A DNA stretch of 40,327 nucleotides from an uncultured Anaerolineales bacterium (GCA_965370435.1 CBDUUP010000002.1:1-40327); one strand, 5' to 3'; positions 1 to 40,327 are shown, counted from the stretch's first letter. Program-made: numbers and translations. The notes: generated by a model not told the origin, from the letters alone.

Positions 1-4
1 AATT

Positions 5-3243: not shown

Positions 3244-3259
3244 TGAGGAGCGATTGCCC

Positions 3260-4963: not shown

Positions 4964-4978
4964 CCTTTGAGAGTCGTG

Positions 4979-11316: not shown

Positions 11317-11317
11317 G

Positions 11318-16879: not shown

Positions 16880-17887
16880 ATGAACTGGAATGATAAAGTT
16901 GTCCTCGTCACCGGCGGGACCGGTTCGTTCGGCAAGAAGTTTGTGGAGATCATGCTGGACGAATACCGCCCTGAAAAAGTGATCGTCTTCAGCCGGGACG
17001 AACTCAAGCAGCATGAGATGCGCACCGCCGGTTTCGACCAGCCCAACTTGCGTTATTTCATCGGCGACGTGCGCGACCAACAACGTCTGCGCCGGGCCAT
17101 GGATGGAGTGGACGTGGTGGTGCACGCCGCCGCGCTCAAGCAGGTCCCCGCCTGCGAGTACAACCCTATGGAGGCCATCAAGACCAACATCCTGGGAAGC
17201 AGCAACGTGGTGGAAGCCGCGCTGGATGCCGGGGTGAGCAAAGTGTTGGCTTTGAGCACCGATAAGGCGGTCAACCCGGTCAACCTGTATGGGGCTACCA
17301 AGCTGGCCGCCGAGAAGCTGGTGGTGCAGAGCAACGCCTACGCGGGCGGCAAGGTCACCCGCTATAGCTGCGTCCGTTATGGCAATGTGGTCGGCAGCCG
17401 GGGCAGCGTGGTTCCGCTGTTCCTCAAGCAGCGCGAGCAAGGCAAAGTCACCGTCACCGATGAGCGCATGACCCGCTTCTGGGTCTCGTTGGAGCAGGGT
17501 GTGCGTTTTGTGATCCGCTGCATCGAACAGATGCACGGCGGAGAGGTCTTCGTGCCCAAGATCCCCAGTACCACCACCGTGGACTTGGCCAGGGCCATCG
17601 CCCCGGAAGCGGAAATAGACTTCATCGGCATCCGTCCCGGCGAGAAGCTGCACGAGGTGTTGATCTCGGAGGACGAGGCCCGGGGAACCGTGGAACTTGA
17701 CGATATGTTCGTGGTGCAGCCGGTGCAGGCATTATGGTTCGGGTACGAATGGCGGGAGCTTGGCAAACCGCTGCCGGATGGTTTCCGCTACGCCAGCGAT
17801 ACCAATGAGGAACGGCTCAATCTCGACCAGATTCGAGAGATGGTCGCCCCCATCGAAGCGGCCTACAACGACGGGAGCTTAGCTTGA
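16880..17887 (+). CDS. UDP-N-acetylglucosamine 4,6-dehydratase, PseB/FlaA1/CapE-FnlA-like
   Basis: KVVLVTGGTGSFGKKFVE, VFSRDELKQHEM, GDVRD, and YGATKLAAEKL. About 335 aa, typical for this subfamily. Confidence 0.85.
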   Translation: MNWNDKVVLVTGGTGSFGKKFVEIMLDEYRPEKVIVFSRDELKQHEMRTAGFDQPNLRYFIGDVRDQQRLRRAMDGVDVVVHAAALKQVPACEYNPMEAIKTNILGSSNVVEAALDAGVSKVLALSTDKAVNPVNLYGATKLAAEKLVVQSNAYAGGKVTRYSCVRYGNVVGSRGSVVPLFLKQREQGKVTVTDERMTRFWVSLEQGVRFVIRCIEQMHGGEVFVPKIPSTTTVDLARAIAPEAEIDFIGIRPGEKLHEVLISEDEARGTVELDDMFVVQPVQALWFGYEWRELGKPLPDGFRYASDTNEERLNLDQIREMVAPIEAAYNDGSLA

Positions 17888-18804
17888 TGCGTTTATTGGT
17901 CACCGGCAGCAGCGGTTTATTGGGGTCTAACCTCTCCCTGGAGGCGGTGAAGCAGGGCCACGAGGTCTACGGCGTGGACCGCAATCCGTTGAACACCGAG
18001 ATTTTCAACCAACACCGTGCAGACCTTTTGGATCCAGGCGCGGTGGCGGAGGCCTTCGCCCAGATCAAGCCGGACTGGGTCGTTCACTGCGCCGCTCTCG
18101 CCAATCTGGAAGCCTGTGAAGCCGACCCCGACCTGGCCCATCAGATGAACGCGGACATGGCCGGGACTGTGGCGGCGGAGGCGGCCAAAGCTGGGGCGCG
18201 GATGGTGCATATTTCCACCGATGCAGTCTTTGATGGGATACGCGGCGGCTACGTTGAGACCGACGCACCCAACCCCCTCGGCGTTTACGCCCGGACCAAA
18301 TTGGCCGGGGAACATGCCGTGGCGGCTGCCCATCCAGAAGCCATCATCGCCCGGGTGAACTTCTACGGCTGGAGTCCAACCGGGGACCGCAGCCTGGCCG
18401 AGTTCTTCTTCAATAACATCTCGGCCGGGAAGAAAGTGAACGGCTTCACCGATCGTTACTTTTGCCCTATGCTGGTCAACGACCTGGTCCAAATCCTGAT
18501 GCAGATGTTGGAAGCCGGATTGCAAGGAATTTATCACACAGTCAGCGCTGAGCCGTTGAGCAAATATGCTTTCGGCCTCGTCATCGCCCGGCGGTTCGGG
18601 CTGGATGAGACCTTGATTCAGCCAATTGAATACACGCCCAGCGACCAGAACGCGGCCCGCTCCCCCAACCTGACCATGAACACCGGCAAGCTGGTCGGAG
18701 CTTTGGGCGAAGCCCCGCCCACCGTCATCTCAGGCATCCAACGCCTGTATGACTTATATAAGGAAGACTACCCGCAGAAACTGCGAGCGATGCTTAAAAA
18801 CTGA
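17887..18804 (+). CDS. RmlD-like (dTDP-4-dehydrorhamnose reductase family) NAD(P)H sugar 4-ketoreductase
   Basis: MRLLVTGSSGLLGSNL, HCAALANLEACE, and YARTKLAGE. The ATG overlaps the upstream TGA; the track start TTG 17884 is an alternative. Confidence 0.75.
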   Translation: MRLLVTGSSGLLGSNLSLEAVKQGHEVYGVDRNPLNTEIFNQHRADLLDPGAVAEAFAQIKPDWVVHCAALANLEACEADPDLAHQMNADMAGTVAAEAAKAGARMVHISTDAVFDGIRGGYVETDAPNPLGVYARTKLAGEHAVAAAHPEAIIARVNFYGWSPTGDRSLAEFFFNNISAGKKVNGFTDRYFCPMLVNDLVQILMQMLEAGLQGIYHTVSAEPLSKYAFGLVIARRFGLDETLIQPIEYTPSDQNAARSPNLTMNTGKLVGALGEAPPTVISGIQRLYDLYKEDYPQKLRAMLKN

Positions 18805-18807
18805 TCC

Positions 18808-18824
18808 ACCACAGAGACACAGAG
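18808..18824. repeat. Solo arm of the CACAGAGA hairpin element
   Basis: ACCACAGAGACACAGAG is identical to 9306-9322. No complementary arm lies nearby. Located 4 nt after the stop at 18804. Confidence 0.7.
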
Positions 18825-18846
18825 AACAACAAACTTAATTTACTAT

Positions 18847-18895
18847 CCACTGACCACTACCCACTGACAACTGCCTACTGCCTACTGACAACTGG
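18847..18895. repeat. Seven in-phase heptamers (CCACTGA-type tandem array)
   Basis: CCACTGA CCACTAC CCACTGA CAACTGC CTACTGC CTACTGA CAACTGG. The array ends in the GGAG RBS of the 18903 gene. Confidence 0.75.
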
Positions 18896-18902
18896 AGCGC
18901 CT

Positions 18903-24742: not shown

Positions 24743-24744
24743 CG

Positions 24745-26738: not shown

Positions 26739-26739
26739 G

Positions 26740-27737: not shown

Positions 27738-27741
<4 letters not shown>
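26740..27741 (+). CDS. Sulfotransferase (Sulfotransfer_1/3-type, PAPS-dependent)
   Basis: FICGHPKSGTSLL (5'-PSB), LVRDPRDNYVS (3'-PB), and IGRWKNDL. First ATG at 26740; the track's GTG 26731 is an alternative. Confidence 0.8.
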
Positions 27742-30300
<2,559 letters not shown>

Positions 30301-30319: not shown

Positions 30320-31141
30320 ATGTCCAAAATCCCTGAACTATTCGATCTGAGCGAGAGAGTCGCGGTGGTGACCGGCGGAGCCGGACTCCTGGGGGAGGAG
30401 TTTTGCCGCACGCTGGCGGAAGCTGGCGCGGCGGTCGTCATCGCCGATATTGACGCTTCGGCTGCCAAGTCTTTGGCTGATGAGATTGCCCAGGACGGAT
30501 ACGCCGCTCTGGGCGTCGAGACCGACATCACTCAGCCCGAATCGGTTCAGGCGATGGTGGAGGCGGCCCTGAAAAAATTTGGCCGTCTGGACATCCTGGT
30601 CAACAACGCAGCGCTGGACCCCAAGTTCGACCCCCAGCGCCGCGGCCAACATGTGAACGCTTTTGAAGACTATCCCCTGGAGGCCTGGAACCAGGCCCTC
30701 TCCGTCAACCTGACGGGGATGTTTCTGTGCTGCCAGGCCGCCGTACACCCCATGCTGAAGCAGGAGAGCGGCGTCATCATCAACCTCTGCTCGATCTACG
30801 GCGTGACCGGACCCGACCAGCGAATCTACCAACGCGAGGGCCAGCCCCCGCAGTACAAGCCGGTGACCTACTCGGTGACCAAAGCTGGGGTGCTGGGCCT
30901 GACCCGATATCTGGCGACTTACTACACCGGGAAGAACATCCGGGTGAACGCCCTCACGCCGGGCGGCGTCTTCAACCAGCACGACGATGAATTCGTCAAA
31001 GCCTACTCGGCCCGCGCTGTGCTGGGTCGCATGGCCCGCAAAGACGAGATGACCGGCGCCCTGCTCTTCCTGGCCTCCGAGGCCTCCTCCTACATGACCG
31101 GGGCCAACCTGGTCGTGGATGGGGGGTGGACGGCTTGGTGA
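30320..31141 (+). CDS. Short-chain dehydrogenase/reductase (classical SDR)
   Basis: VAVVTGGAGLLGEEF (TGxxxGxG), NNAA, and YSVTKAGVLGLTR (YxxxK). Confidence 0.8.
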   Translation: MSKIPELFDLSERVAVVTGGAGLLGEEFCRTLAEAGAAVVIADIDASAAKSLADEIAQDGYAALGVETDITQPESVQAMVEAALKKFGRLDILVNNAALDPKFDPQRRGQHVNAFEDYPLEAWNQALSVNLTGMFLCCQAAVHPMLKQESGVIINLCSIYGVTGPDQRIYQREGQPPQYKPVTYSVTKAGVLGLTRYLATYYTGKNIRVNALTPGGVFNQHDDEFVKAYSARAVLGRMARKDEMTGALLFLASEASSYMTGANLVVDGGWTAW

Positions 31142-31150
31142 AAAATATTA

Positions 31151-31210
31151 ACCACAAAGACTCTAAGACACAAAGTTTTGTTTTTCTTCGTGTCTTTGTG
31201 TCTTCGTGGT
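31151..31210. repeat. Hairpin repeat element, inverted copy of the 21105-21168 element
   Basis: ACCACAAAGACTCTAAGACACAAAG, then TTTTGTTTTT, then CTTCGTGTCTTTGTGTCTTCGTGGT. A 25-bp stem with 4 mismatches, located 10 nt after the stop at 31141. Confidence 0.8.
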
Positions 31211-31223
31211 AAAAAAAAATACA

Positions 31224-31979
31224 ATGACTGAAGTCCTCGCCTTGATCCCCGCCCGGGGCGGCTCCAAGAGCATCCCCCGGAAGAATATCCACCCCTTTGG
31301 AGAGCATCCGTTGATCGCCTACAGCATCGCGGCTGGTCTGGCCGCCGAGACGGTGAGCCGGGTGGTGGTCTCCACCGATGATGAGGAGATCGCCAAGGTG
31401 TCCCGGCGCTATGGGGCCGAAACGCCCTTCCTGCGCCCGGACGAACACGCCCAGGATGACACCCCCGACCTGCCCGTCTTCCAGCACGCGCTAGAATGGC
31501 TGGCCGAGAACGAAGGCTACCAGCCGGACATCGTGGTGCAGCTTCGCCCGACCTCTCCCTTCCGGCGGGTCTGGCACATAGACCAGGCCGTCCAACGCCT
31601 TATCGAACAGCCGGAGGCCGACGCGGTGCGCACGGTCTGCATCCCTTTCCAGAATCCTTTCAAGATGTGGACTCTCGCGCCCGATGGGTTGATGCAGCCC
31701 TTGATACAGACCGAGTTCGACGAACCCTACAACATGCCCCGCCAGACCCTGCCCGAAGTGTACTGGCAGACCGGCTACGTGGACGCGACCTGGGCAAATA
31801 CCATTCTAGAGAAAAATTCCATGACCGGCGAGCGCATCCTGCCGCTGGTCATTGACCCCGGCGACTGGGTGGACATCGATTCCCCCGACGATTGGCGATG
31901 GGCGGAACGGCTGTTGGCCGGAGGCGAGATCACCCTGGATGACCTGGGCTTCCAGGTCACGGAGGTTTCAGATGCCTGA
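31224..31979 (+). CDS. Acylneuraminate cytidylyltransferase family (NeuA/LegF-like CMP-nonulosonate synthase)
   Basis: ALIPARGGSKSIPRKNI canonical N-terminus. ATG 31224 is preferred over the track's GTG 31206. Confidence 0.8.
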   Translation: MTEVLALIPARGGSKSIPRKNIHPFGEHPLIAYSIAAGLAAETVSRVVVSTDDEEIAKVSRRYGAETPFLRPDEHAQDDTPDLPVFQHALEWLAENEGYQPDIVVQLRPTSPFRRVWHIDQAVQRLIEQPEADAVRTVCIPFQNPFKMWTLAPDGLMQPLIQTEFDEPYNMPRQTLPEVYWQTGYVDATWANTILEKNSMTGERILPLVIDPGDWVDIDSPDDWRWAERLLAGGEITLDDLGFQVTEVSDA

Positions 31980-33864
31980 GATCAAGATAGGCGACCGCCT
32001 GATAGGCGACGGCCATCCAACTTACATAATCGCCGAGATCGGCGTGAACCACAACGGCATTCTGCCGTTAGCCATCGAGTTGATTGACGCCGCGGTGGAC
32101 GCCGGCGCCGACGCGGTCAAATTCCAGAAGCGAAACCTGGAAAACCTGTATCCCCGGAAATACCTGGAAAATGTCAACGCCGGAGAGAAGACCCTGCGCT
32201 ACATGCTGCCTATCTTGCAAAAAGTGGAGCTTTCCGACGAGGATTACTGGCGCATCAAAGAACACTGCCAGAAGAAAGACATCACCTTCCTGTGCACACC
32301 CTGGGACAACGACAGCGCCGACTTCCTGCTCGAGTTGGGCATCCCGGCTTTCAAGGTCGCCTCCCCCGATATGATCAACCTGCCGTTGATCGAACACCTG
32401 GTGAAATTTAACAAACCCTTGATCCTCTCCACCGGCATGTCGCGGATGGAGGAGGTGGAAACCACGGTGGAATTCCTCCAGGAGCGGGGGGCCGAGTTCG
32501 CCCTGCTGCACTGCAACAGCGCCTACCCCGCCGCTTTCGAGGACATCAACCTGCGCTTCATGGAGCGCCTGCGTGAGTTCGGCGTCCCGGTGGGCTATTC
32601 CGGCCACGAGCGGGGCATCGCCGTCTCTACGGTGGCGGCCGCCATGGGCGCAACAATTGTCGAACGCCACATCACCCTGGACCGGACTATGGACGGCCCC
32701 GACCACGCCTCCAGCCTGGAGCCGGGTGGTTTCAAAAAGATGATCCGTGACATCCGGCAGACCGCCGCCGCGATGGGCGCTGGGAAGGAAAAATTCATCA
32801 GCATGGGGGAGATCCTCAACCGCGAGGTGTTGGCCAAGAGTCTGGTAGCCGCCCGAAATATTGAATCGGGAGAGAAGATCACATCCGAGATGGTGACGGT
32901 GAAAGGGCCAGGACAGGGCCTCTCCCCGCAGCATTACCTGGAACTGGTGGGCCGCACTACGGAACGCGCCATCGAAGAGGACGAACCTTTCCTGGAAGCC
33001 GACCTGGGGATTGAACTGGACCTGGACGTTGAGCACACCCTGCCCATGCAATGGGGCGTTACGGTGCGCTTCAATGACTTCAAAGATATGCTTGACCTCG
33101 ACCTGCGCATGCTGGAGTTCCACTTCACCGATAAAGACCTGGACGATCCCTATCCCGGCGGCGACTACTCCATGAAGATGGTCGTCCATGCCCCCGAATA
33201 CTGGGACAATACCCTGGTGGACCTCTGCACCACCGATGATATTCAGCGCCGCGACTCCATCGCCCTGGTGCAGAAAGCGATCAACGTGGCCCGCAGCATC
33301 GCCCCCCACTTTGAGGGCGCTCCCAAGGTCGTCATCCATCCCGGGGCCATGAGCATCGACCATCCCATCGAAGACCGCCAGACCCTGTATGACAATCTGC
33401 GGCGTTCGGTTGAGGCTTTGGATCACGAGGGTGTAGAACTGCTGCTGGAGAACCTGCCCCCCCGGCCCTGGTATTTTGGCGGCCAATGGCTGACCAACGC
33501 CTTCATGGACGCCCACGAGATCGTGGAATTCATCGAATCCACGAGCCTCACCGGGTTCTGTTTCGACACCTCCCATTCCAAACTGTACTGCAACTGGGCG
33601 CAGGTGGATTTCTACGAGCAGGTGGAAGTCGCGCTGCCCTACATCCGCCACCTGCACCTCTCCGACGCCGCCGGATTGGACGGCGAAGGGTTGCAGATCG
33701 AGGAAGGGGTGATTGATTGGGTGAAATTCTTCAAAGTATTGGGCGACTATAAGGACACCATGATCCCGGAGATATGGCGCGGCCACCAACGCCACGGCGA
33801 GGGCTTCCGCATCGCCATCCGCCGCCTCTCGGAGGCCTATTTCAAAGCTCAGGAGGGCGGATAG
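31972..33864 (+). CDS. Fusion protein: NeuB-like synthase + SAF domain (N-terminal) fused to a xylose-isomerase-like TIM-barrel domain (C-terminal)
   Basis: 630 aa from ATG 31972, with an 8-nt overlap with the upstream gene. The N-terminal half has HPTYIIAEIGVNHNG, FKVASPD, ERHITLD..GPDH and SAF (ARNIESGEKIT). From about 33040 onward the motifs VVHAPEYW, VVIHPGAM, LLLENL, FCFDTSH and HLHLSDA are typical of AP_endonuc_2/sugar-phosphate isomerase barrels. Confidence 0.8.
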   Translation: MPEIKIGDRLIGDGHPTYIIAEIGVNHNGILPLAIELIDAAVDAGADAVKFQKRNLENLYPRKYLENVNAGEKTLRYMLPILQKVELSDEDYWRIKEHCQKKDITFLCTPWDNDSADFLLELGIPAFKVASPDMINLPLIEHLVKFNKPLILSTGMSRMEEVETTVEFLQERGAEFALLHCNSAYPAAFEDINLRFMERLREFGVPVGYSGHERGIAVSTVAAAMGATIVERHITLDRTMDGPDHASSLEPGGFKKMIRDIRQTAAAMGAGKEKFISMGEILNREVLAKSLVAARNIESGEKITSEMVTVKGPGQGLSPQHYLELVGRTTERAIEEDEPFLEADLGIELDLDVEHTLPMQWGVTVRFNDFKDMLDLDLRMLEFHFTDKDLDDPYPGGDYSMKMVVHAPEYWDNTLVDLCTTDDIQRRDSIALVQKAINVARSIAPHFEGAPKVVIHPGAMSIDHPIEDRQTLYDNLRRSVEALDHEGVELLLENLPPRPWYFGGQWLTNAFMDAHEIVEFIESTSLTGFCFDTSHSKLYCNWAQVDFYEQVEVALPYIRHLHLSDAAGLDGEGLQIEEGVIDWVKFFKVLGDYKDTMIPEIWRGHQRHGEGFRIAIRRLSEAYFKAQEGG

Positions 33865-34051: not shown

Positions 34052-35650
34052 TTGATCTCCCGTCTCCGCACCGCCTGGATCGGATGGCGCAGCGCCCGCC
34101 GTCTGATGAGTATGGCCCGCCAGGTGGCGGCCCAGGCGACTCCCTCCGATGGGAAGCGCCCGGTGGCGTTCTTCAACGCCTCGGCTCGTATCACCGGACT
34201 CAGCCTCAACGCGGCTTTTTCGCTGCTGGCCGCCTGGAGTCTGCGATTGGCGGGCGTTCCGGTGGCGCATTTCGTCTGCCGGTCGGGGATGAGCCGCTGC
34301 GTTCTGGGGTCCAACCGGGACGACCACACCGCCCCCCCGCCCTGTGAATCCTGCATCGAGACCTCCCGCCGCCTGTATCACCAGGCCAACCCGCACTGGT
34401 TTTCCTACGTACCCGATGACACCTTGACCAGGACGATCCAGCGGCTCAGCGTGGACCAATTGATGGATTTCGTGTATCAGAGCCGTCCGCTGGGCGCGCT
34501 GGCGCTGCCCTCCCTGCGCTGGACCTTGCGACGCCACACCCTGCTGGACGACGTTCCTACCCGCCACCTGTTGAGGGAATACATCCTCTCCGCCAACCGG
34601 GTGATGGATGAGTTCGACGCTTTCCTGGCGCAGGTCAACCCCTCCGCGGCGGTGATCTTCAACGGGACCATGTTCCCGGAGGCGGCCGCGCGTTGGGTGG
34701 CCCAGCGCCGCGGCGTGCGGGTGATAACCCACGAAGTCGCCTTCGAGCCGTTTTCGGCCTTTTTCACCGGCGGGGAGGCGACCGCCTATCCGGTGGACAT
34801 CCCCGAGGATTTTGAGCTTTCCCCGGCCCAGGACGAACGCCTGAACGTACACTTGGCCCAGCGTTTCCAGGGCGAGTTCACCATGGCGGGGATACGGTTC
34901 TGGCCCCAGATGCAGGGCCTGGACGAGGACTTCCTTGCTCGCGCCGCCCAATTCAAGCAGATCGTCCCCATCTTCACCAACGTGGTCTTCGATACCAGCC
35001 AGGTGCACGCCAACACCGTCTTCCCCCACATGTTCGCCTGGTTGGACACCGCGTTAGAGATCATTCACGCCCACCCGGAGACGCTTTTCGTCATCCGCGC
35101 CCACCCGGACGAGATGCGCCCCGGCACCGGCAAGCAGAGCCGGGAGAGCGTCCGCCAATGGGTGGAGGGCCAGGGCGTCAGCGATCTTCCCAACGTGGCC
35201 TTTATCGATTCGGAGGAGTACGTCAGTTCCTATGAATTGATCCAGCAGGCCAAGTTCGTCATCGTCTATAACTCCTCCATCGGCCTGGAGGCGACCTTGC
35301 TGGGGAGGCCGGTATTGTGCGGCGGCCAGGCCCGCTACACCCAGTATCCCACCGTCTTCTTCCCCCAGACCCCCGATTCATACCGCCAGCAAGCAGAGGA
35401 GTTCCTGACCGCCGAAGCCATCCCCCTGCCGGAGGAGTTCGTCCGCAACGCCCGGCGTTTCTTGTATTTCCAGCTTTTCCGCACCTCCCTGCCCCTGGGA
35501 GAGTTTGTAGAGAACCATCCCCGGCCTGGTTTCATCCAGTTGCGTCCCTTTGATCTGGCGCAGCTTCGGCCAGAACACTCTATGTCGTTGAAGGTCATCC
35601 AGGAGGGGATTTTGGAGGGCGGCCCTTTCCTGGCGAACGAGGACTCATGA
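34052..35650 (+). CDS. Capsule_synth (KpsC/KpsS)-like putative glycosyltransferase, paralogue 2, with a Cys4 cluster
   Basis: FVIRAHPDE (HP motif) and VYNSSIGLEATLLGRPVL. N-terminal C-x6-C-x14-C-x2-C (HFVCRSGMSRC...CESC). TTG start 34052 has a GGAGG 6 nt upstream; ATG 34106 is an alternative. Confidence 0.5.
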   Translation: MISRLRTAWIGWRSARRLMSMARQVAAQATPSDGKRPVAFFNASARITGLSLNAAFSLLAAWSLRLAGVPVAHFVCRSGMSRCVLGSNRDDHTAPPPCESCIETSRRLYHQANPHWFSYVPDDTLTRTIQRLSVDQLMDFVYQSRPLGALALPSLRWTLRRHTLLDDVPTRHLLREYILSANRVMDEFDAFLAQVNPSAAVIFNGTMFPEAAARWVAQRRGVRVITHEVAFEPFSAFFTGGEATAYPVDIPEDFELSPAQDERLNVHLAQRFQGEFTMAGIRFWPQMQGLDEDFLARAAQFKQIVPIFTNVVFDTSQVHANTVFPHMFAWLDTALEIIHAHPETLFVIRAHPDEMRPGTGKQSRESVRQWVEGQGVSDLPNVAFIDSEEYVSSYELIQQAKFVIVYNSSIGLEATLLGRPVLCGGQARYTQYPTVFFPQTPDSYRQQAEEFLTAEAIPLPEEFVRNARRFLYFQLFRTSLPLGEFVENHPRPGFIQLRPFDLAQLRPEHSMSLKVIQEGILEGGPFLANEDS

Positions 35651-36555
35651 GCGACCCCATAGACCGAATCGAAATCCTGCCTGTATCCTTGCTTGACGAG
35701 GAGCGTCCCCGGGTGGATGAACTCCGCCGGTTGGCCCGCAAACTGGGGCTGGAATTCGGCTGGCATTATTTACTCGACCTGACTTGGATGCTCAAACACT
35801 TGGGCCAAATCCAGGGCCAGCGAATCATGGATGCCGGGGCGGGCATCGGCGTGATGCAATGGTATCTAGCCGAAAATGAGGCCGAAGTCATCAGCGTAGA
35901 CCGGGGCAGCCGGGCCAATTTATCCCTGCGCTTCCGGGAGCGATACGAGATACGAGGTCTGGGAGAGGCGGATCTAGCTTCCGTCACTGCGGTGGTTCGG
36001 CACGAGTTAGCCCAACCAGTGAACGCCGCTGCCAAGCTGAAGAAGCAAGTCCGCAACCTGATTTCGTTGGTTCGTATGGCCTTGCCGCCCACTGGGGAAG
36101 GCCGGGTCCTCATTTATAATCAGGATTTGAAAGAACTCACCGACCTCGCCAATGACTCGCTGGACGCGGTGGTGGCGGTCTCCTCCCTGGAGCACAACAC
36201 CCCCGAAGGCCTGCGGGAAGTGGTGGTCGAATTGATGCGAGTGCTCAAGCCGGGCGGCGTCCTTTTGGCAACTCTGGGCGCGGCCCGCGACCAGGATTGG
36301 TTCCACGAGCCGTCCAAAGGCTGGAACTACACCGAGGCTGCCCTGCGGCGTATCTTCGACCTCGCCCCGGAAGCCCCCGCCAACTACGACCGCCACGATG
36401 AACTCCTCGCCGACCTCCAAGACTGCGCCGAACTGGGCGACAACCTGGCGAGTTTTTACGCCCGCTCCGGCGATAACGGGATGCCCTGGGGAAAATGGGA
36501 CCCGCAGTACCAGCCGGTGGGCGTGTGCAAGGTGAAGAGGCAAGTGAGCGAGTAG
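35647..36555 (+). CDS. Class I SAM-dependent methyltransferase
   Basis: IMDAGAGIGV (motif I), EVISVD, VVAVSSLEH, and LKPGGVLLATL. ATGA overlap with the upstream gene. Confidence 0.75.
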   Translation: MSDPIDRIEILPVSLLDEERPRVDELRRLARKLGLEFGWHYLLDLTWMLKHLGQIQGQRIMDAGAGIGVMQWYLAENEAEVISVDRGSRANLSLRFRERYEIRGLGEADLASVTAVVRHELAQPVNAAAKLKKQVRNLISLVRMALPPTGEGRVLIYNQDLKELTDLANDSLDAVVAVSSLEHNTPEGLREVVVELMRVLKPGGVLLATLGAARDQDWFHEPSKGWNYTEAALRRIFDLAPEAPANYDRHDELLADLQDCAELGDNLASFYARSGDNGMPWGKWDPQYQPVGVCKVKRQVSE

Positions 36556-36622
36556 GCAGGTTGCAAGTTGGCAAGTAGCAAGTAAGTAAGTAGACAGGTA
36601 TACAAGGAGCAGGTTTGCGTGG
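36556..36622. repeat. 7-8 nt tandem array (GCAAGT-type)
   Basis: GCAGGTT GCAAGTT GGCAAGT AGCAAGT AAGTAAG TAGACAG... starts immediately after the TAG stop at 36555. Same orientation as the 5-102 array. Confidence 0.65.
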
Positions 36623-36721: not shown

Positions 36722-36976
36722 ATGAGCGTAGAAAATCAGACCGAATTACTAGAACGGGTGCAATCCGTGCTGGCGGAGGTCTTTCAGGTTGAGCCTGGCG
36801 AGGTGGGACCGGAGTTGGAATTTGGCGACCTGCCGCAGTGGGACTCGATGGGGCACATGGACGTGATGATAAGCCTGGAGACCGAGTTCGGGGTCGAGAT
36901 CAACGCCGACACCATCGCCGGACTGGTCAACGTCTCCGCCATTTGCGCCCATATATTGGAGAACGATCATGGCTGA
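36722..36976 (+). CDS. Acyl/aminoacyl carrier protein (phosphopantetheine-binding)
   Basis: 84 aa, acidic, with a carrier-protein Ser motif in LPQWDSMGHMDVMISLE. AGGAG RBS upstream of ATG 36722. The upstream part of ORF 36653-36976 is ignored. Confidence 0.8.
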   Translation: MSVENQTELLERVQSVLAEVFQVEPGEVGPELEFGDLPQWDSMGHMDVMISLETEFGVEINADTIAGLVNVSAICAHILENDHG

Positions 36977-38153
36977 GTCCACCCTGGAGATCACCCCCCA
37001 GATCACCATCCCCGTCCATCTGGTGGGAGAGGTGCGGGCCAAGCTGGCCTACGTGGACGAGGCCATCGCCGAGGCGCAGATCGCCGCGAGCGGCGACCGC
37101 ATCACCCTCATCCTTCACCGTGAAATTGAAAACCGCGCCGCCCTGGAGGAGAAGGTCCAGCGGGTGGTGGAGGCGATGGCGAAGGGAGCCATCCAGCCCA
37201 AAGTGGAAGTGTTGGAAGATCATCTAGACCGCCCTACGCCATACACCGCCGACCCTATGGATGAATTGATGGCCCGCGGCGAGGTCAGCCGGGAGGCGGA
37301 GGGAATCTTCACCCTCGGCCCGTTGGTGACCCGCCTGATTGATTACTTTGAGGGCCGCTTCCTGGAACTGGCCGCTTCCTTTGAGGCCCAACCCTACCGT
37401 TTCCCCACCCTGATCTCGGCGGAATATTTGGATCGGGTGGACTATTTCAACGCCTTCCCCCATTCCCTCACCTTCGCCACTCACCTGCGCGAAGACCTGG
37501 ACGTGATCGAGCATTTCGCCGAGCATGCCGCCTATGAGGAGGACGGCCTCAACGCCCCGCCGGAGTCTTTCTCCAAGATGAAGGCCTTGCTCTCCCCGGC
37601 GGTCTGCTATCATCTCTATTTCTCGTTGGCCGATAACCCCCTGCCGGAGGGGAAGATGGTCGTCACCGCGGTGGGAAACTGCTTCCGCTATGAGTCCTTC
37701 AATCTGGTTTCGCTGGAACGCCTGTGGAACTTCACCATGCGGGAGGTCATCTTCGTCGGCCCCAAGGACTTCGTGCTGGAGAACCGCGAGACCGGCCGCC
37801 AACGCATGCAGAAGGTTTTCGAGGAGATCGGCCTGGCCTACAGCGTGGAGAGCGCCAACGATCCCTTCTTCATCGGCGAGTTCCGCAAGCAGGCCGCTTT
37901 CCAGAGCGCATTCCAGCTCAAATACGAAATTCGCGCCCGGCTGCCCTTCCAGGACAGCACGCTGGCGATTGGCTCTTATAACTACCACCAGGATTTCTTT
38001 GGCCGCCATCTGAACATCCCCCTGCCGGACGGCTCTCCGGCTCACACCGGCTGCCTCGCCTTTGGTCTGGAACGGGCGGCCTTCGCTTTCCTGGCCCAAT
38101 ATGGCCTAGACCCGGCCGACTGGCCGCCGTCTATGCAGGAGGCGCTGACATGA
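36969..38153 (+). CDS. Amino acid:[carrier protein] ligase, a class-II aaRS (methanogen-type SerRS) catalytic-core homologue lacking a tRNA-binding arm
   Basis: FPTLISAEYLDRVDYFNAFPH, LSPAVCYHLY, GNCFRYES (motif-2-like), FQLKYEIR, and HTGCLAFGLERAAFAFL (motif-3-like). 8-nt overlap with the carrier protein gene. Confidence 0.65.
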   Translation: MAESTLEITPQITIPVHLVGEVRAKLAYVDEAIAEAQIAASGDRITLILHREIENRAALEEKVQRVVEAMAKGAIQPKVEVLEDHLDRPTPYTADPMDELMARGEVSREAEGIFTLGPLVTRLIDYFEGRFLELAASFEAQPYRFPTLISAEYLDRVDYFNAFPHSLTFATHLREDLDVIEHFAEHAAYEEDGLNAPPESFSKMKALLSPAVCYHLYFSLADNPLPEGKMVVTAVGNCFRYESFNLVSLERLWNFTMREVIFVGPKDFVLENRETGRQRMQKVFEEIGLAYSVESANDPFFIGEFRKQAAFQSAFQLKYEIRARLPFQDSTLAIGSYNYHQDFFGRHLNIPLPDGSPAHTGCLAFGLERAAFAFLAQYGLDPADWPPSMQEALT

Positions 38154-38644
38154 GCGAAGTTACCTATCGTCTGGGGATCGAGGCGGACCTGCCGACCATC
38201 ACCGAGATGTACGTCGAGCTTAACAGCTACTTCTACCAGATGGGCTACCGCCTGCCCCACCCCGAAAATGTCGGACAGGTCTGGCAAGACTCCTTCCGGC
38301 GCACTCTGGGACGCTTCAGCGTGATCTACGTGGCCGAGATGGAGGGCGAGGTGGTGGGCTTCATGCTGGCCCGCATCAAGCGCGTGCCCGCCTACATGGG
38401 CGGGGTGCTGGTGGGCGAACTCAGCGACATGTGGATATTGGACAAGGCCCGCCGCCTGGGCATCGGCGATAAACTCTCCCGCCTGTCAATGGCCTGGCTG
38501 CGCGAGCAAGGCGCCCACTCGGTGGAAATCCAGGTGCTTCGGGATAATGAAGCCAGTTGGAAACTCTACGAGCGAATGGGCTTCCAGTTGGAATTCCGCG
38601 CCGGGCGCTTATTATGGGACGACTACGTTGACGAAGATGCGTGA
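38150..38644 (+). CDS. GNAT family N-acetyltransferase
   Basis: 164 aa. The segment ...GELSDMWILDKARRLGIGDKLSRLSMAWLREQGAHSVEIQVLRDNEASWKLYERMGF contains the R/Q-x-x-G-x-G/A acyl-CoA motif. ATGA overlap with the ligase gene. Confidence 0.8.
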   Translation: MSEVTYRLGIEADLPTITEMYVELNSYFYQMGYRLPHPENVGQVWQDSFRRTLGRFSVIYVAEMEGEVVGFMLARIKRVPAYMGGVLVGELSDMWILDKARRLGIGDKLSRLSMAWLREQGAHSVEIQVLRDNEASWKLYERMGFQLEFRAGRLLWDDYVDEDA

Positions 38645-39395
38645 AGTCACCCGCCAAGGTCTCATCGAGATACTTCAAACGCTGGGCGTCCGTCCCGGCG
38701 ATGGATTGCTGGTCCATTCGGCCTTGCAGTTCCTGGGCCGCCCGGAGGAGGGCGTCAAAACTTACCTGGATGCCTTGTTGGACGTATTGGGCGATGAGGG
38801 CACAATAGCCGTCCCCGCCTTCAACTTCGACTTCGCCCGAGGGGAAGCTTACGACCCCCAGACTACCCCCGCCGACGGCATGGGCGTCTTTTCGGAATTC
38901 CTCCGCCAGCAGCCCGGCGCGCTGCGCACCCTCCACCCCATGCAGTCCCTGGCGGTGATGGGCCGCTGCGCCGCCGACCTGGCCGGGCGGGACACGCCCT
39001 CGGCCTTTGACCCCGGATCGGCCTTTGACCGCATGTTAGAACTGGATTTCAAGGCCCTGCTGCTGGGCGCGGACATTCAGGCCGTCGCCATGCTGCATAT
39101 TTGCGAACAGCGCGCCCAGGTCCCCTACCGTCACTGGAAAGACTTCACCGGCCGGGTGAAAATCGGCCAAGAATGGGAGCAGCGCACCTACCGCATGTTC
39201 GTCCGCGACCTGGAAATGGACGCCCAACTCGAACTCTACGCCGTCCAGTCCGCCCTGGAAACCCACGGCCAATGGTCAACCCAGCCCCTCAACTACGGCG
39301 CCCTTTCCCTCTTCCGCCTCACCGACTTCGTCGCCCAAACCCAATCCCTCCTCACCGCCGACCCCTGGTCCCTGGTCGCCAACCGCCCCCAATAA
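38637..39395 (+). CDS. Aminoglycoside 3-N-acetyltransferase (AAC(3)/Antibiotic_NAT) family acyltransferase
   Basis: LGVRPGDGLLVHSAL..LG, GTIAVPAFNF, ALRTLHPMQSLAVMG, and KALLLGADIQAVAMLHICE. 8-nt overlap with the GNAT gene. Confidence 0.75.
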   Translation: MREVTRQGLIEILQTLGVRPGDGLLVHSALQFLGRPEEGVKTYLDALLDVLGDEGTIAVPAFNFDFARGEAYDPQTTPADGMGVFSEFLRQQPGALRTLHPMQSLAVMGRCAADLAGRDTPSAFDPGSAFDRMLELDFKALLLGADIQAVAMLHICEQRAQVPYRHWKDFTGRVKIGQEWEQRTYRMFVRDLEMDAQLELYAVQSALETHGQWSTQPLNYGALSLFRLTDFVAQTQSLLTADPWSLVANRPQ

Positions 39396-39421
39396 AAACC
39401 ATGAATCCTTATTCATCATCC

Positions 39422-39490
39422 GCAATTCACCCACCCGCAACCCGCAAACTTGCAAACTTGCGACTTGCAACTTGCATACTTGCAACCTTC
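39422..39490. repeat. 7-8 nt tandem array (ACTTGCA-type)
   Basis: GCAA/GCGA/GCAT cores at 39437, 39444, 39452, 39460, 39467, 39474 and 39482. Reads ...CAAACTTG CAAACTTG CGACTTG CAACTTG CATACTTG CAACCTTC. The array ends 2 nt before ATG 39493. Confidence 0.7.
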
Positions 39491-39492
39491 TT

Positions 39493-40327
39493 ATGTCTCC
39501 CCTGATGCCCCTCATTGAGGAACTCTGGTTCCTCGAACGCAATATCGTCTCGGACGGCTTTGACCAGGCGCTGAATCGTCTGGCCGAAGAAGTCCCCATG
39601 ACCATCCACCAGTATCCCACCGGCGAACCCTGCTGGACCTGGGAAGTTCCTGAAAAATGGTCTTGCCAGGAAGCTTACCTGGAGACCCTGGACGGCCAAC
39701 GCCTTCTCGACCACGCCGACCATCCCCTGCACGTGGTCTCCTATTCGCTGCCCTTTGAAGGCGTGGTGAGCCGGGAGGAATTATTCCAGCATTTACACGT
39801 CCATCCCCGGCTGCCGGACGCCATTCCCTTTGTTTTCAAATATTACCAGCGCGATTGGGGCCTCTGCGCGCCGCAATCTTTGAAAGACACCCTCACCGAC
39901 GAGCAATACCGGGTCGTGATACGGACCCGCTTCGAGCCGGGGACGCTCAAAGTAGGCGAGGTCGTCATCCCCGGCGAGAGCGAGGAAACCTTCATGCTGG
40001 TCGCCCATCTCTGCCATCCCGCTATGGTCAACGATGACCTGACCGGCGTGGTGGTCGGATTGGAGGCGGCCCGCATCCTGCTGAATGGCCCCCGCCCTTA
40101 TTACACCTACCGCCTGCTGATCCTGCCGGAGACCATTGGCTCGGTAGCCTATCTAAGCCATAACGAAGAGTTGATCCCCCAGATGGTGGGCGGGCTTTTC
40201 CTGGAGATGCTGGGCAACAACTCGCCCCACGCCTTGCAGGGATCATTCACGCCCTCCAGCCAGGCCGATTTAACCCTGACCTCCGCCCTGCGAGATGCAG
40301 ACCCTCAGAGTTACACTGGCGCTTACC
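39493..40327 (+). CDS. Aminopeptidase-like (M28-fold) DUF4910/COG4310 protein, 3'-truncated by the window end
   Basis: Not in the ORF track because it is open at the window edge. My own translation from ATG 39493 gives MSPLMPLIEELWFLERNIVSDGFDQAL...FMLVAHLCHPAMVNDDLTGVVVGLEAARIL...LLILPETIGSVAYL with no stop to 40327. The CHP..NDxLSG/TG pattern is typical of COG4310 proteins found in polysaccharide loci. Confidence 0.65.
   Translation, partial: MSPLMPLIEELWFLERNIVSDGFDQALNRLAEEVPMTIHQYPTGEPCWTWEVPEKWSCQEAYLETLDGQRLLDHADHPLHVVSYSLPFEGVVSREELFQHLHVHPRLPDAIPFVFKYYQRDWGLCAPQSLKDTLTDEQYRVVIRTRFEPGTLKVGEVVIPGESEETFMLVAHLCHPAMVNDDLTGVVVGLEAARILLNGPRPYYTYRLLILPETIGSVAYLSHNEELIPQMVGGLFLEMLGNNSPHALQGSFTPSSQADLTLTSALRDADPQSYTGAY

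What the first reader, a model, noticed from the sequence alone, without database searches (positions are those of the whole stretch)
36722..40327. ACP + SerRS-like amino acid:[carrier protein] ligase + GNAT + AAC(3)-type acyltransferase + aminopeptidase-like protein: candidate glycan aminoacylation module
Seen: an 84-aa ORF with a carrier-protein Ser motif (WDSMGHMD) overlaps by 8 nt a 394-aa ORF. That ORF carries class-II aaRS-like core motifs (GNCFRYES; HTGCLAFGLERAAFAFL) and candidate Zn ligands (PAVCYH / FRYE / HTGC), but has no recognisable tRNA-binding arm. With 4-nt and 8-nt overlaps it is followed by a GNAT and an Antibiotic_NAT/AAC(3)-family protein, then a COG4310/DUF4910 M28-like protein. 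Established: truncated methanogen-type SerRS homologues (Bradyrhizobium japonicum Bll0957/Bll6282, Agrobacterium Atu2573) load Gly or Ala onto the phosphopantetheine arm of an adjacent carrier protein. The physiological fate of that aminoacyl-S-carrier has not been established. Inference: here the pair closes a 38-kb same-strand glycan cluster and is translationally coupled to two N-acyltransferases. Aminoacyl-S-ACP may therefore be the donor for N-aminoacyl decoration of an amino sugar or nonulosonic acid, with the aminopeptidase-like protein as a trimming, editing or transfer partner. This would give the orphan aa:CP ligase family a biological role.
Basis: partly seen in the sequence, partly recalled or inferred. 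Interest (0 to 1): 0.88.

Follow-up and report, generated by a model that had tools for sequence, protein, structure and literature searches.

The report
Synthetase-like ligase feeding sugar-coat aminoacylation
A relic of a seryl-tRNA synthetase, paired with its own small carrier protein, sits in a conserved gene set for a sialic-acid-like surface sugar in Anaerolineales bacteria, where it most likely supplies an activated amino acid that is attached to that sugar, which would be the first biological job proposed for this kind of enzyme.

Summary
The five ORFs are real and lie at the stated coordinates. They are a carrier protein, a zinc-type class II synthetase-like ligase, a GNAT, an AAC(3)-family acyltransferase and a DUF4910/DUF2172 protein cut by the window end.

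The ligase is closest to the solved Bll0957 glycine:[carrier protein] ligase, not to tRNA-charging SerRS. It belongs to a divergent long form with an ~85-residue N-terminal domain.

Across 80 Anaerolineales genomes the order ACP-ligase-(GNAT)-AAC(3)-DUF4910 is kept in about 95% of loci. It usually follows SDR, CMP-sugar synthetase, a NeuB fusion, a KpsS-like transferase and a methyltransferase.

Relatives at 39-50% identity also sit in glycan loci. There they pair with an MBOAT, a FemAB-like protein, or DUF4910 plus a formyltransferase. More distant relatives, including the Bll0957 type, sit in acyl-CoA dehydrogenase or PKS/NRPS contexts.

Published work ties DUF4910 (Cj1295) to N5-acyl replacement on pseudaminic acid, and finds AAC(3)-like domains fused to the ACP loader FkbH.

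Best reading: aminoacyl-S-ACP is the donor for N-acylation of a de-N-acetylated nonulosonic acid. This is a new variant of carrier-protein-dependent glycan acylation. Nothing is biochemically proven, and the amino acid and acceptor are unknown.

The parts
36722..36976 (+). Dedicated carrier protein (84 aa). The phosphopantetheine-site Ser lies in WDSMGHM.
   Evidence: Pfam PP-binding E 1.8e-7, 31.7 bits, above cutoff 20.8. An AGGAG lies 7 nt upstream of the ATG. The motif FGdlPqWDSmGHM is conserved at 90% or more in 70 orthologues. Present next to the ligase in 75 of 78 loci.
36969..38153 (+). Long-form amino acid:[carrier protein] ligase-like enzyme (394 aa). Residues 1-~85 form an N-terminal alpha/beta domain. 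Residues ~90-394 form a zinc-type class II aaRS core.
   Evidence: PDB 3mey Bll0957 E 1e-40 against methanogen SerRS 1.5e-20. NF005479 scores 173 bits, below cutoff 357. AF2 model pLDDT 75.6; Foldseek hits 2cj9 at 1e-22 and 4h2s at 5e-21 with TMt 0.73. Invariant in 53 diverse relatives: C213, R240, E242, R251, E259, D298, K318, E320, S336, N338, C362, G366, R369, G379.
38150..38644 (+). Small GNAT N-acetyltransferase (164 aa). Proposed to cap the alpha-amine of the aminoacyl group. An optional module member.
   Evidence: Pfam Acetyltransf_1 E 1.1e-16. Present in 60 of 68 loci and absent from 8 that keep ACP-ligase-AAC3-DUF4910. It also follows the ligase in MBOAT-type cassettes and is fused to a ligase in P0220.
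38637..39395 (+). AAC(3)/Antibiotic_NAT-family acyltransferase (252 aa). Proposed acyl-S-ACP:amino-sugar N-acyltransferase.
   Evidence: Pfam PF02522 E 1.9e-40, 139 bits. NCBIfam AAC_3 scores 110 bits, below cutoff 270, so it is not a resistance enzyme. The LH..E motif aligns with the catalytic His/Glu of AAC(3)-VIa (residue numbers from memory). Present in 65 of 68 loci. AAC(3)-like domains fused to FkbH occur next to DUF4910 genes.
39493..40327 (+). DUF4910/DUF2172 M28-like single-zinc protein, first 278 aa only (cut by the window end). Proposed de-N-acetylase, or alternatively a transacylase.
   Evidence: Pfam DUF4910 E 5e-48 and DUF2172 E 2e-29. PDB 3k9t CA_C2195 E 9e-51. The equivalents of zinc ligands His189/Asp195 are present (HLCHPAMVNDD), and the His324 equivalent is present in the full-length orthologue in L001. 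Present in at least 60 of 63 loci.
35647..36555 (+). SAM-dependent methyltransferase directly upstream of the ACP gene.
   Evidence: Pfam Methyltransf_11/25. Found upstream in 38 of 56 loci.
34052..35650 (+). KpsS/KpsC-like (Capsule_synth) ulosonic-acid transferase.
   Evidence: Pfam PF05159 E 2e-8. Found upstream in 49 of 56 loci.
31852..33864 (+). NeuB-family nonulosonate synthase fused to an AP_endonuc_2 TIM barrel. The true start is probably later than 31852.
   Evidence: Pfam NeuB E 2.6e-84, SAF, and AP_endonuc_2 E 3e-30. TIGR03569 scores 358 bits, below cutoff 400. Found upstream in 45 of 56 loci.
31206..31979 (+). CMP-nonulosonate synthetase (PseF-like).
   Evidence: Pfam CTP_transf_3. 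TIGR03584 PseF E 3.5e-46, below cutoff.
30320..31141 (+). Short-chain dehydrogenase that heads the conserved block.
   Evidence: Pfam adh_short_C2 E 2e-53. NF006619 scores 206 bits. Conserved order SDR-CMPs2-NeuB2TIM-KpsS2.
16880..18804 (+). PseB (UDP-GlcNAc 4,6-dehydratase, inverting) plus an RmlD-like reductase. A candidate source of a mono-amino sugar precursor.
   Evidence: TIGR03589 PseB scores 489 bits, above cutoff 408. rmlD scores 187 bits, below cutoff. No aminotransferase family hit in any ORF of the window.

Best explanation
The module is a cytoplasmic, carrier-protein-dependent N-acyl remodelling unit for a sialic-acid-like (nonulosonic) sugar of a sulfated surface glycan.

Step 1. 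The zinc-type, SerRS-derived ligase activates a small amino acid with ATP. It loads the amino acid as a thioester onto the phosphopantetheine arm of the adjacent 84-aa carrier protein. This is inferred from homology to the biochemically and structurally characterised Bll0957; the identity of the amino acid is unknown.

Step 2. The GNAT acetylates the free alpha-amine of the aminoacyl group, most simply while it is still on the carrier. This is inferred. The step is optional, because about 12% of orthologous loci lack the gene.

Step 3. The DUF4910 single-zinc M28-like protein removes the N-acetyl group that the sugar inherited from UDP-GlcNAc and so exposes the only amine available. This is inferred from the published Cj1295 hypothesis and from the absence of any aminotransferase in the cluster.

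Step 4. The AAC(3)-family enzyme transfers the (N-acetyl)aminoacyl group from the carrier onto that amine. This is inferred. The pantetheine arm of ACP mimics CoA, the catalytic His/Glu are kept, and the family is found fused to the ACP loader FkbH.

Step 5. The modified sugar is CMP-activated and added to the glycan by the KpsS-like transferase.

What is shown: the gene content, the intact active-site residues, the strict synteny and the glycan context.

What is inferred: every chemical step.
For: Ligase identity.

Translational coupling by 8-, 4- and 8-nt overlaps.

Synteny in 80 Anaerolineales species-level genomes:
- ACP in 75 of 78 loci
- AAC3 in 65 of 68
- DUF4910 in at least 60 of 63
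- GNAT in 60 of 68
- KpsS-like in 49 of 56 and the NeuB fusion in 45 of 56 loci upstream

The module proteins are 54-70% identical across these genomes, like the flanking PAPS synthase at 73%. The block therefore looks vertically inherited.

Independent contexts of relatives at 39-50% identity are all glycan loci:
- MBOAT-CP-ligase-GNAT (L089, L093, L094)
- ligase-CP-x-MBOAT (L087)
- CP-ligase-(GNAT)-AAC3 (L088, L091)
- CMP-synthetase-ligase-CP-formyltransferase-x-DUF4910 (L095)
- FemAB-like-CP-ligase-hexapeptide acetyltransferases in a Wzy locus (L099)

Fusions: ligase+GNAT and BtrH_N+ligase.

DUF4910:
- Cj1295 is required for 5-N-(di-O-methylglyceroyl) pseudaminic acid, and its authors proposed C5 de-N-acetylation (PMC3068675).
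- CA_C2195 neighbourhoods link DUF4910 with NeuB, ACP and AAC(3)-like genes (PMC4000134).
- AAC(3)-like domains fused to FkbH are listed among DUF4910 neighbours.
- The zinc ligands are conserved.

No aminotransferase is found in the 40-kb window or in two 21-kb orthologous loci. PseB is followed by a reductase rather than an aminotransferase.
Against: - There is no biochemical or glycan-structure evidence for any Anaerolineales member.
- The ligase scores below the NCBIfam equivalog cutoff (173 against 357 bits). It also carries an extra N-terminal domain of unknown role.
- All characterised AAC(3)-family enzymes use acetyl-CoA, not acyl-ACP (my knowledge).
- Das et al. note that DUF4910 lacks the M28 catalytic Asp and Glu, so hydrolase activity is not assured.
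- DUF4910 also occurs in loci without ACP or AAC(3), for example in Mesorhizobium. In L095 it occurs with a ligase and CP but with no detectable AAC(3).
- The acceptor sugar cannot be identified. The window has two NeuB and two CMP-synthetase sets.
Confidence: 0.55

Rival explanations
1. Same donor, different division of labour. [quoted passage not shown] The AAC(3)-like protein is then an ordinary acetyl-CoA-dependent N-acetyltransferase.
For: - DUF4910 is the partner shared by the Anaerolineales module and the distant L095 locus, where no AAC(3) homologue was detected.
- The family lacks the M28 catalytic Asp/Glu but keeps one zinc site.
- Cj1296/7 was out of frame in C. jejuni variants that still made the N5-acyl sugar.
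- All solved AAC(3) enzymes use acetyl-CoA (names; cofactor from my knowledge).
Against: - C. jejuni has a second AAC(3)-like gene of 263 aa in the same neighbourhood cluster, so the Cj1296/7 argument is weak.
- AAC(3)-like domains are fused to the ACP loader FkbH.
- With no aminotransferase in the cluster, a deacetylase is still needed.
- I know of no precedent for acyl transfer by an M28-fold protein.
Confidence: 0.2
2. The aminoacyl group ends up as an O-ester on the glycan, as in Dlt-type D-alanylation, rather than as an amide on a sugar amine.
For: The closest non-Anaerolineales relatives (41-50% identity) are paired with MBOAT proteins. MBOAT is the DltB family, which takes D-alanyl from a carrier protein for O-esterification (my knowledge).
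Against: - No ORF of the window matches MBOAT.
- The partners here are an N-acyltransferase family and a protein genetically tied to N5-acyl replacement.
- All module proteins look cytoplasmic by family, whereas Dlt-type esterification is extracytoplasmic.
Confidence: 0.12
3. The ACP-ligase pair feeds a small secondary metabolite or lipid rather than the glycan, and merely sits beside the glycan genes.
For: More distant family members lie in ACP/acyl-CoA-dehydrogenase/DUF1839, BtrH/FabH or PKS/NRPS clusters. A FAAL-like enzyme and a 905-aa unknown protein head the window cluster.
Against: - The genes overlap (8, 4 and 8 nt) with sugar-modifying enzyme families, and the order is fixed across 80 genomes.
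- No condensation, ketosynthase or acyl-CoA dehydrogenase genes occur in the window.
- At least five independent lineages place the pair inside glycan loci.
Confidence: 0.08
4. The ORF is a genuine or tRNA-dependent seryl-tRNA synthetase paralogue.
For: JGI annotates many orthologues as 'seryl-tRNA synthetase'. By fold, methanogen SerRS is the top Foldseek hit. About 40 residues of the N-terminal domain align to the SerRS profile.
Against: - The first ~148 positions of the methanogen SerRS profile, which form the tRNA-binding domain, have no counterpart.
- Sequence scores favour Bll0957 by 20 orders of magnitude.
- The gene overlaps a carrier-protein gene in 75 of 78 genomes.
- The score is far below the SerRS cutoff (133 against 611 bits).
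Confidence: 0.02

Closest known systems
Bll0957 / Bll6282 / Atu2573 amino acid:[carrier protein] ligases (Mocibob et al. 2010, 2013; PDB 3mey, 4h2s)
   Same: - Zinc-type class II aaRS core derived from methanogen SerRS.
- The Cys/Glu/Cys zinc ligands and the motif 2 and motif 3 arginines are conserved.
- The gene is adjacent to a dedicated carrier-protein gene.
- ~31% identity, Foldseek TMt 0.73.

   Different: - About 80 residues longer at the N-terminus.
- Below the NCBIfam equivalog cutoff.
- Different operon partners. The Bll0957 type sits with an acyl-CoA dehydrogenase and DUF1839. This one sits with GNAT, AAC(3) and DUF4910 in a nonulosonic-acid glycan cluster.
- Amino-acid specificity is unknown.
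Campylobacter jejuni Cj1295 region and Clostridium acetobutylicum CA_C2195-2199 (nonulosonic-acid N-acyl diversification in flagellin glycosylation loci)
   Same: - A DUF4910/DUF2172 protein (3k9t E 9e-51), AAC(3)-like acyltransferase(s), an ACP and a methyltransferase next to NeuB and CMP-synthetase genes.
- Cj1295 is genetically required for replacing the N5-acetyl of pseudaminic acid by another acyl group.

   Different: - The ACP loader there is FkbH/HAD-type (glyceryl) or another type, not an aaRS-derived ligase.
- The acyl group there is di-O-methylglyceroyl, not an amino acid.
- The context there is flagellin glycosylation and phase-variable genes. Here it is an ABC-transporter/KpsS-type sulfated glycan that is conserved across an order.
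Dlt (DltA/DltC/DltB/DltD) and Vibrio AlmEFG carrier-protein-dependent aminoacylation of teichoic acids and lipid A (my knowledge)
   Same: The logic is the same: amino acid + ATP to aminoacyl-S-carrier protein to a cell-surface glycoconjugate. The MBOAT-CP-ligase cassettes of relatives at 41-50% identity look directly Dlt-like.
   Different: - The loader is a class II aaRS-type enzyme, not an ANL-superfamily adenylating enzyme.
- The window has no MBOAT or LpxL-type transferase.
- The predicted product is an amide made in the cytoplasm, not an ester made outside it.
Butirosin side-chain pathway BtrI/BtrJ/BtrH/BtrG (my knowledge; BtrH_N Pfam family)
   Same: An amino-acid-derived acyl group is built on an ACP. 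Its amine is N-protected. It is transferred to an amino-sugar amine by an ACP-dependent acyltransferase, and a peptidase-like enzyme takes part. A BtrH_N+ligase fusion exists among relatives.
   Different: The loader there is an ATP-grasp enzyme, and the transferase and deprotecting enzymes belong to other families. The product there is an aminoglycoside antibiotic rather than a surface glycan.

Membership tests
Amino acid:[carrier protein] ligase (Bll0957 type) | Class II aaRS catalytic core of the methanogen-SerRS lineage, with motif 2 and motif 3 arginines | tested here: met
   Best PDB sequence hits are Bll0957 (1e-40) and methanogen SerRS (1.5e-20). Foldseek gives the same two. R240 and R369 are invariant.
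Amino acid:[carrier protein] ligase (Bll0957 type) | Zinc site Cys/Glu/Cys that binds the substrate alpha-amine | tested here: met
   C213, E259 and C362 align with the Bll0957 ligands (residue numbers from memory) and are invariant in 53 relatives.
Amino acid:[carrier protein] ligase (Bll0957 type) | Loss of the N-terminal tRNA-binding domain | tested here: inconclusive
   The first ~148 SerRS profile positions are missing. However, an ~85-residue beta-alpha-beta-beta-alpha-beta domain that is absent from Bll0957 is present and conserved. Its function is unknown.
Amino acid:[carrier protein] ligase (Bll0957 type) | Adjacent dedicated carrier-protein gene | tested here: met
   The ACP gene overlaps the ligase gene by 8 nt. 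The pair is kept in 75 of 78 orthologous loci and in every relative's locus long enough to judge except L098, whose small neighbouring ORF has no carrier-protein match.
Amino acid:[carrier protein] ligase (Bll0957 type) | Score above the curated NCBIfam equivalog cutoff (NF005479) | tested here: not met
   173 bits against a cutoff of 357. It is a separate subfamily, so I do not file it as an equivalog.
Amino acid:[carrier protein] ligase (Bll0957 type) | ATP-dependent aminoacylation of holo-carrier protein and no tRNA charging | not testable with these tools
   Needs an enzyme assay.
DUF4910/DUF2172 (CA_C2195 / Cj1295) family | Pfam DUF4910 with the inserted DUF2172 domain | tested here: met
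   163.5 and 102.2 bits, both above cutoff. 3k9t E 9e-51.
DUF4910/DUF2172 (CA_C2195 / Cj1295) family | Single zinc site His189/Asp195/His324, with the M28 catalytic Asp/Glu replaced (Ser or Ala 191, Pro225) | tested here: met
   The window fragment has H, A, D and P at the aligned positions. The third His is seen in the full-length orthologue in L001. The window copy is cut before it.
DUF4910/DUF2172 (CA_C2195 / Cj1295) family | C-terminal HTH_47 domain | not testable with these tools
   It lies beyond the window end. The L001 orthologue aligns with 3k9t to residue 419.
Antibiotic_NAT / AAC(3) family | Pfam PF02522 over its full length | tested here: met
   139 bits against a cutoff of 25, profile positions 1-231 of 232.
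Antibiotic_NAT / AAC(3) family | Aminoglycoside-resistance AAC(3) equivalog | tested here: not met
   NF033082 scores 110 bits against a cutoff of 270. It is a family member with a different, unknown substrate.
Dlt-type carrier-protein-dependent aminoacylation | ANL-type (DltA) ligase and an MBOAT (DltB) transferase | tested here: not met
   The ligase is aaRS-type. No MBOAT hit in any ORF of the window. MBOAT is present only in relatives' loci.
Nonulosonic acid biosynthesis cluster | NeuB-family synthase plus CMP-sugar synthetase, with a UDP-GlcNAc-modifying enzyme | tested here: met
   Two NeuB genes and two CTP_transf_3 genes. PseB is above the equivalog cutoff.
Pseudaminic/legionaminic acid pathway proper | PseC/LegC aminotransferase and PseH/LegH acetyltransferase | tested here: not met
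   No aminotransferase family hit in the window. The GNAT's PseH hit is only E 2e-4.

The most novel reading that the evidence does not exclude
A large long-form subfamily of SerRS-derived aa:CP ligases, each with its own carrier protein, is a general and previously unrecognised donor system for aminoacylating bacterial surface glycans. It plugs into at least three unrelated transferase types: MBOAT, AAC(3)+DUF4910, and FemAB-like. The amino group is usually capped by a GNAT, formyl- or hexapeptide transferase. In Anaerolineales it is a vertically inherited, order-wide trait that yields an N-(N-acetyl-aminoacyl) nonulosonic acid on a sulfated glycan. This would give the first physiological role to part of the orphan aa:CP ligase family. 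It would also give defined reactions to DUF4910 (nonulosonate de-N-acetylase) and to non-resistance AAC(3) homologues (acyl-ACP-dependent N-acyltransferases).
Probability: 0.45. Interest if true: 0.8.

Novelty: new variant of a known kind. Interest (0 to 1): 0.72.

Why it matters
- **An orphan enzyme family.** aa:CP ligases have had solved structures and in-vitro activity since 2010 but no known biological role. A 2022 review still says so. A conserved, testable pathway context for a large subfamily would close that gap.
- **Two more unassigned families.** The model gives concrete reactions to DUF4910/Cj1295, a phase-variable flagellin-glycan gene of Campylobacter, and to the many AAC(3) homologues that are not resistance genes.
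- **A predicted glycan.** It predicts a new class of aminoacylated, sulfated, sialic-acid-like glycans in Anaerolineales. These are abundant filamentous bacteria in sludge granules and sediments, where sialylated and sulfated polymers are known to matter.
- **Evolution.** It shows translation machinery being reused for cell-surface chemistry without tRNA.

Tried and rejected
1. An Rfam scan of the whole window, plus a permissive scan of the 166-nt leader before the ACP gene, looked for an amino-acid riboswitch or T-box that could name the substrate. Nothing was found.
The narrower alignment returned only Anaerolineales among the 80 loci kept out of 225 hits. Wider contexts had to come from 12 single look-ups and from plasmid tblastn.
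3. The original Mocibob 2010 paper (PMC2930448) is not held. The Bll0957 residue numbers and substrate preferences are therefore from memory, checked only against tag-offset arithmetic.
4. I tried to infer the amino acid from pocket residues. The segments around the zinc ligands are close to Bll0957 (PAVCYH against PAACYP, SYNYH against SFNYH, HTGC identical), but I have no validated specificity code, so I left it open.
5. The AF2 model has low confidence at residues 164-210, 240-245 and 298-316. The last segment corresponds to the carrier-binding loop that was swapped in the engineered Bll0957. No docking conclusion was drawn.
6. I considered the GNAT as the aminoacyl transferase, by analogy with FemX-type enzymes. 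I rejected it as the main reading because it is a 164-aa acetyl-CoA-type GNAT and is dispensable in 8 orthologous loci.
7. Literature searches for aaRS-like ligase together with MBOAT or polysaccharide found nothing.

Full report
**1. What is in the sequence**

The last 3.6 kb of the window holds five + strand ORFs.

| Coordinates | Product | Evidence |
|---|---|---|
| 36722-36976 | 84-aa carrier protein | PP-binding E 1.8e-7; AGGAG 7 nt upstream |
| 36969-38153 | 394-aa class II synthetase-like protein | see section 2 |
| 38150-38644 | 164-aa GNAT | Pfam Acetyltransf_1 |
| 38637-39395 | 252-aa Antibiotic_NAT/AAC(3) member | E 1.9e-40 |
| 39493-window end | first 278 residues of a DUF4910+DUF2172 protein | after a 97-nt gap |

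The first four genes overlap by 8, 4 and 8 nt.

The rest of the window is one + strand glycan cluster. It contains:
- GDP-mannose dehydratase;
- a fatty-acyl-AMP-ligase-like enzyme;
- Wzm/Wzt;
- two KpsS/C-like proteins;
- five sulfotransferases with a PAPS synthase and TauE;
- a PseB equivalog followed by an RmlD-like reductase;
- two NeuB-family synthases, one fused to a TIM barrel;
- two CMP-sugar synthetases;
- three methyltransferases.

No ORF matches an aminotransferase family.

**2. The ligase**

By sequence it is closest to the solved Bradyrhizobium glycine:[carrier protein] ligase Bll0957 (E 1e-40). Methanogen-type SerRS follows at 1.5e-20. NCBIfam ranks the aa--[ACP] ligase model first (5e-51). 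However, the score of 173 bits is far below the equivalog cutoff of 357.

An AlphaFold model (pLDDT 75.6) matches methanogen SerRS and Bll0957 about equally by Foldseek (1e-22 and 5e-21). TM-score is 0.73 over the Bll0957 chain at 31% identity.

A search of a 50%-identity representative library found 2003 relatives, 467 of them below 1e-30. Most are 390-410 residues long and align from about residue 10-20. The ~85-residue N-terminal beta-alpha-beta-beta-alpha-beta domain is therefore a family trait that the ~320-residue Bll0957 type lacks. Only its last ~40 residues align to the SerRS profile, at positions 149-190 of 518.

Across 53 relatives down to 28% identity the invariant residues include C213, E259 and C362. 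These are the zinc ligands by alignment to Bll0957. R240 and R369, the motif 2 and motif 3 arginines, are invariant too.

The enzyme is therefore a competent zinc-type aminoacyl-adenylate former of the aa:CP ligase lineage. It is a distinct long-form subfamily and not a tRNA synthetase.

**3. Conservation and context**

Orthologues at 66-76% identity are abundant in Chloroflexota/Anaerolineales metagenome-assembled genomes (MAGs). A pattern scan of one genome per species gave 225 confirmed hits, and the 80 best are all Anaerolineales.

I called ORFs in these loci and searched them with all window proteins.

| Gene | Loci with the gene / loci long enough to judge |
|---|---|
| ACP | 75 of 78 |
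| AAC(3) | 65 of 68 |
| DUF4910 | at least 60 of 63 |
| GNAT | 60 of 68 |
| KpsS-like (upstream) | 49 of 56 |
| NeuB-TIM fusion (upstream) | 45 of 56 |

A few loci have GT4 genes upstream instead. Downstream, beyond the window end, come two sulfotransferases, another CMP-synthetase and an SDR.

Mean identity to the window is 70% for the ligase, 69% for DUF4910, 58% for AAC(3), 60% for GNAT and 54% for ACP. The nearby PAPS synthase is at 73%. This looks like a vertically inherited core envelope trait rather than a variable serotype cassette. The carrier's FGdlPqWDSmGHM motif is conserved.

**4. Relatives outside this clade**

Representatives at 39-50% identity all lie in glycan loci but with other partners:
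- MBOAT-CP-ligase-GNAT in Wza/Wzc, PEP-CTERM or Wzx/Wzy loci (L089/L090, L093, L094).
- Ligase-CP-x-MBOAT (L087).
- CP-ligase-(GNAT)-AAC(3) on short contigs (L088, L091).
- CMP-synthetase-ligase-CP-formyltransferase-x-DUF4910 (L095).
- FemAB-like-CP-ligase followed by two hexapeptide acetyltransferases in a Wzy locus (L099).

Two further look-ups were uninformative. L092 is too short, and the genes around the ligase in L098 match no family.

Fusions exist between the ligase and a GNAT, and between a BtrH_N domain and the ligase.

Relatives at 36% identity or less on plasmids sit elsewhere:
- ACP/acyl-CoA-dehydrogenase/ligase/acyltransferase within PKS/NRPS genes (Streptomyces).
- BtrH_N, FabH-like and acyl-CoA dehydrogenase genes (Bacillus mycoides).
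- ACP/acyl-CoA-dehydrogenase/ligase/DUF1839, which is the Bll0957 type (Rhizobium).

The glycan association is thus a property of one subfamily and not of all aa:CP ligases.

An N-capping enzyme (GNAT, formyltransferase or hexapeptide transferase) recurs next to the ligase-CP pair whatever the transferase. The simplest reading is that it acts on the aminoacyl group itself.

**5. The partners**

The DUF4910 fragment matches CA_C2195 (PDB 3k9t) at E 9e-51. It keeps the family's zinc ligands and its non-peptidase substitutions, and the third ligand is present in the full-length orthologue.

Das et al. (PMC4000134) showed that this family is embedded in modified-sugar operons with NeuB, ACP and AAC(3)-like genes. 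They suggested a non-peptidase reaction such as transacylation.

Hitchen et al. (PMC3068675) showed that the Campylobacter member Cj1295 is required for 5-N-(2,3-di-O-methylglyceroyl) pseudaminic acid. They proposed that it removes the C5 N-acetyl group so that another acyl group can be added.

In the Das supplement the AAC(3)-like neighbours of DUF4910 include CA_C2197, Campylobacter proteins, and AAC(3)-like domains fused to FkbH, the enzyme that loads glyceryl units on ACPs. That fusion physically ties the AAC(3)-like domain to ACP-bound acyl donors.

The window's AAC(3)-like protein keeps the His/Glu pair that aligns with the AAC(3)-VIa catalytic residues (numbering from memory). It scores far below the resistance-enzyme cutoffs.

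**6. Mechanism proposed**

The proposed steps are:
1. The ligase makes aminoacyl-S-ACP.
2. The GNAT caps the alpha-amine.
3. DUF4910 removes the GlcNAc-derived N-acetyl from the nonulosonic acid or its precursor.
4. The AAC(3)-like enzyme transfers the acyl group from the carrier to that amine.
5. The sugar is CMP-activated and transferred by the KpsS-like enzyme.

The absence of any aminotransferase in 40 kb, together with PseB being followed by a reductase, means the only sugar amines available are N-acetylated ones. This makes a deacetylase logically necessary for any N-acyl exchange.

Every chemical step is inferred. I put 0.55 on the overall scheme. I put about 0.2 on the variant in which DUF4910 is the transferase, and 0.12 on an ester product.

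**7. Comparison with known systems, and novelty**

The logic matches several known systems:
- Dlt and AlmEFG: amino acid to carrier protein to surface glycoconjugate.
- The Cj1295-type N5-acyl exchange on pseudaminic acid.
- Butirosin side-chain transfer from an ACP to an amino-sugar amine.

Four things are new:
- the loader is an aaRS-derived aa:CP ligase;
- it is combined with AAC(3) and DUF4910;
- it is conserved across a whole order;
- the same ligase-CP pair is reused with MBOAT or FemAB-like transferases elsewhere.

A 2022 review still states that the biological role of aa:CP ligases is unknown. Full-text searches found no paper linking them to glycans.

I rate it a new variant of a known kind, with interest 0.72.

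**8. Limits**

- The amino acid and the acceptor are unidentified.
- No riboswitch or other RNA clue is present.
- The DUF4910 gene is truncated by the window end.
- Context sampling outside Anaerolineales rests on about a dozen loci.
- Several residue-number statements rely on my memory of the primary papers.

Noticed in passing
window 4-48, 2146-2187, 18842-18894, 36538-36593, 39437-39489: Short 7-8-nt tandem repeats (GCAAGTT, AACTTGC and ACTGACA types, 3-6 copies) occupy several intergenic gaps of the cluster. The repeat-bearing 97-nt gap between the AAC(3) and DUF4910 genes is specific to this genome: in L001 the two genes overlap by 4 nt. Their function is unknown.
   Followed up: partly
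window 3254-4963 and 4967-7684: A fatty-acyl-AMP-ligase-like enzyme (NF006624 359 bits, below cutoff) is followed by a 905-aa ORF with no Pfam or NCBIfam hit. This is a second acyl-activating system at the head of the cluster, with no carrier protein of its own in the window. It could serve a lipid anchor, or it could share the 84-aa ACP.
   Followed up: partly
window 16880-19970: A PseB equivalog (489 bits, above cutoff 408) is followed by an RmlD-like reductase and a NeuB, with no aminotransferase anywhere in the window. This predicts a mono-amino, 7-hydroxy, 9-deoxy nonulosonic acid rather than pseudaminic or legionaminic acid.
   Followed up: partly
window 31852-33864: A NeuB-family synthase is fused to an AP_endonuc_2 (xylose-isomerase-like) TIM barrel. 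The fusion is kept in 45 of 56 Anaerolineales loci. The role of the extra domain is unknown.
   Followed up: partly
window 10435-12169, 24739-25608, 26731-30300: Five sulfotransferase genes, a bifunctional ATP sulfurylase/APS kinase and a TauE-family exporter indicate a heavily sulfated glycan. Two more sulfotransferases follow the module in orthologous loci.
   Followed up: no
P0172, P0220 (relatives of the ligase): Natural fusions exist: BtrH_N domain + ligase (738 aa) and ligase + GNAT (743 aa).
   Followed up: partly
L089 8549-11661; L094 6128-9297; L093 1786-4900; L087 10001-13976: MBOAT + carrier protein + aaRS-like ligase (+ GNAT) cassettes lie inside exopolysaccharide loci of other lineages. 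They look like a Dlt-like system with a non-DltA loader. I found no description of them in the held literature.
   Followed up: partly
L099 610-4541: A FemAB-like (Acetyltransf_6) protein lies directly upstream of a carrier protein and ligase in a Wzy-type locus. This may be a Fem-type transferase that uses aminoacyl-carrier protein instead of aminoacyl-tRNA.
   Followed up: no
window 22849-23742: A 297-aa ORF with no family hit recurs next to the GT2 gene in several Anaerolineales loci, for example L025, L060, L062 and L072-L076.
   Followed up: no
L096 (Solidesulfovibrio carbinolicus plasmid pDCAR1) 11962-13272: A DUF4910 protein 61% identical to the window's lies in a plasmid-borne nonulosonic-acid locus with four radical SAM genes and no AAC(3) or ACP annotated nearby.
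   Followed up: no
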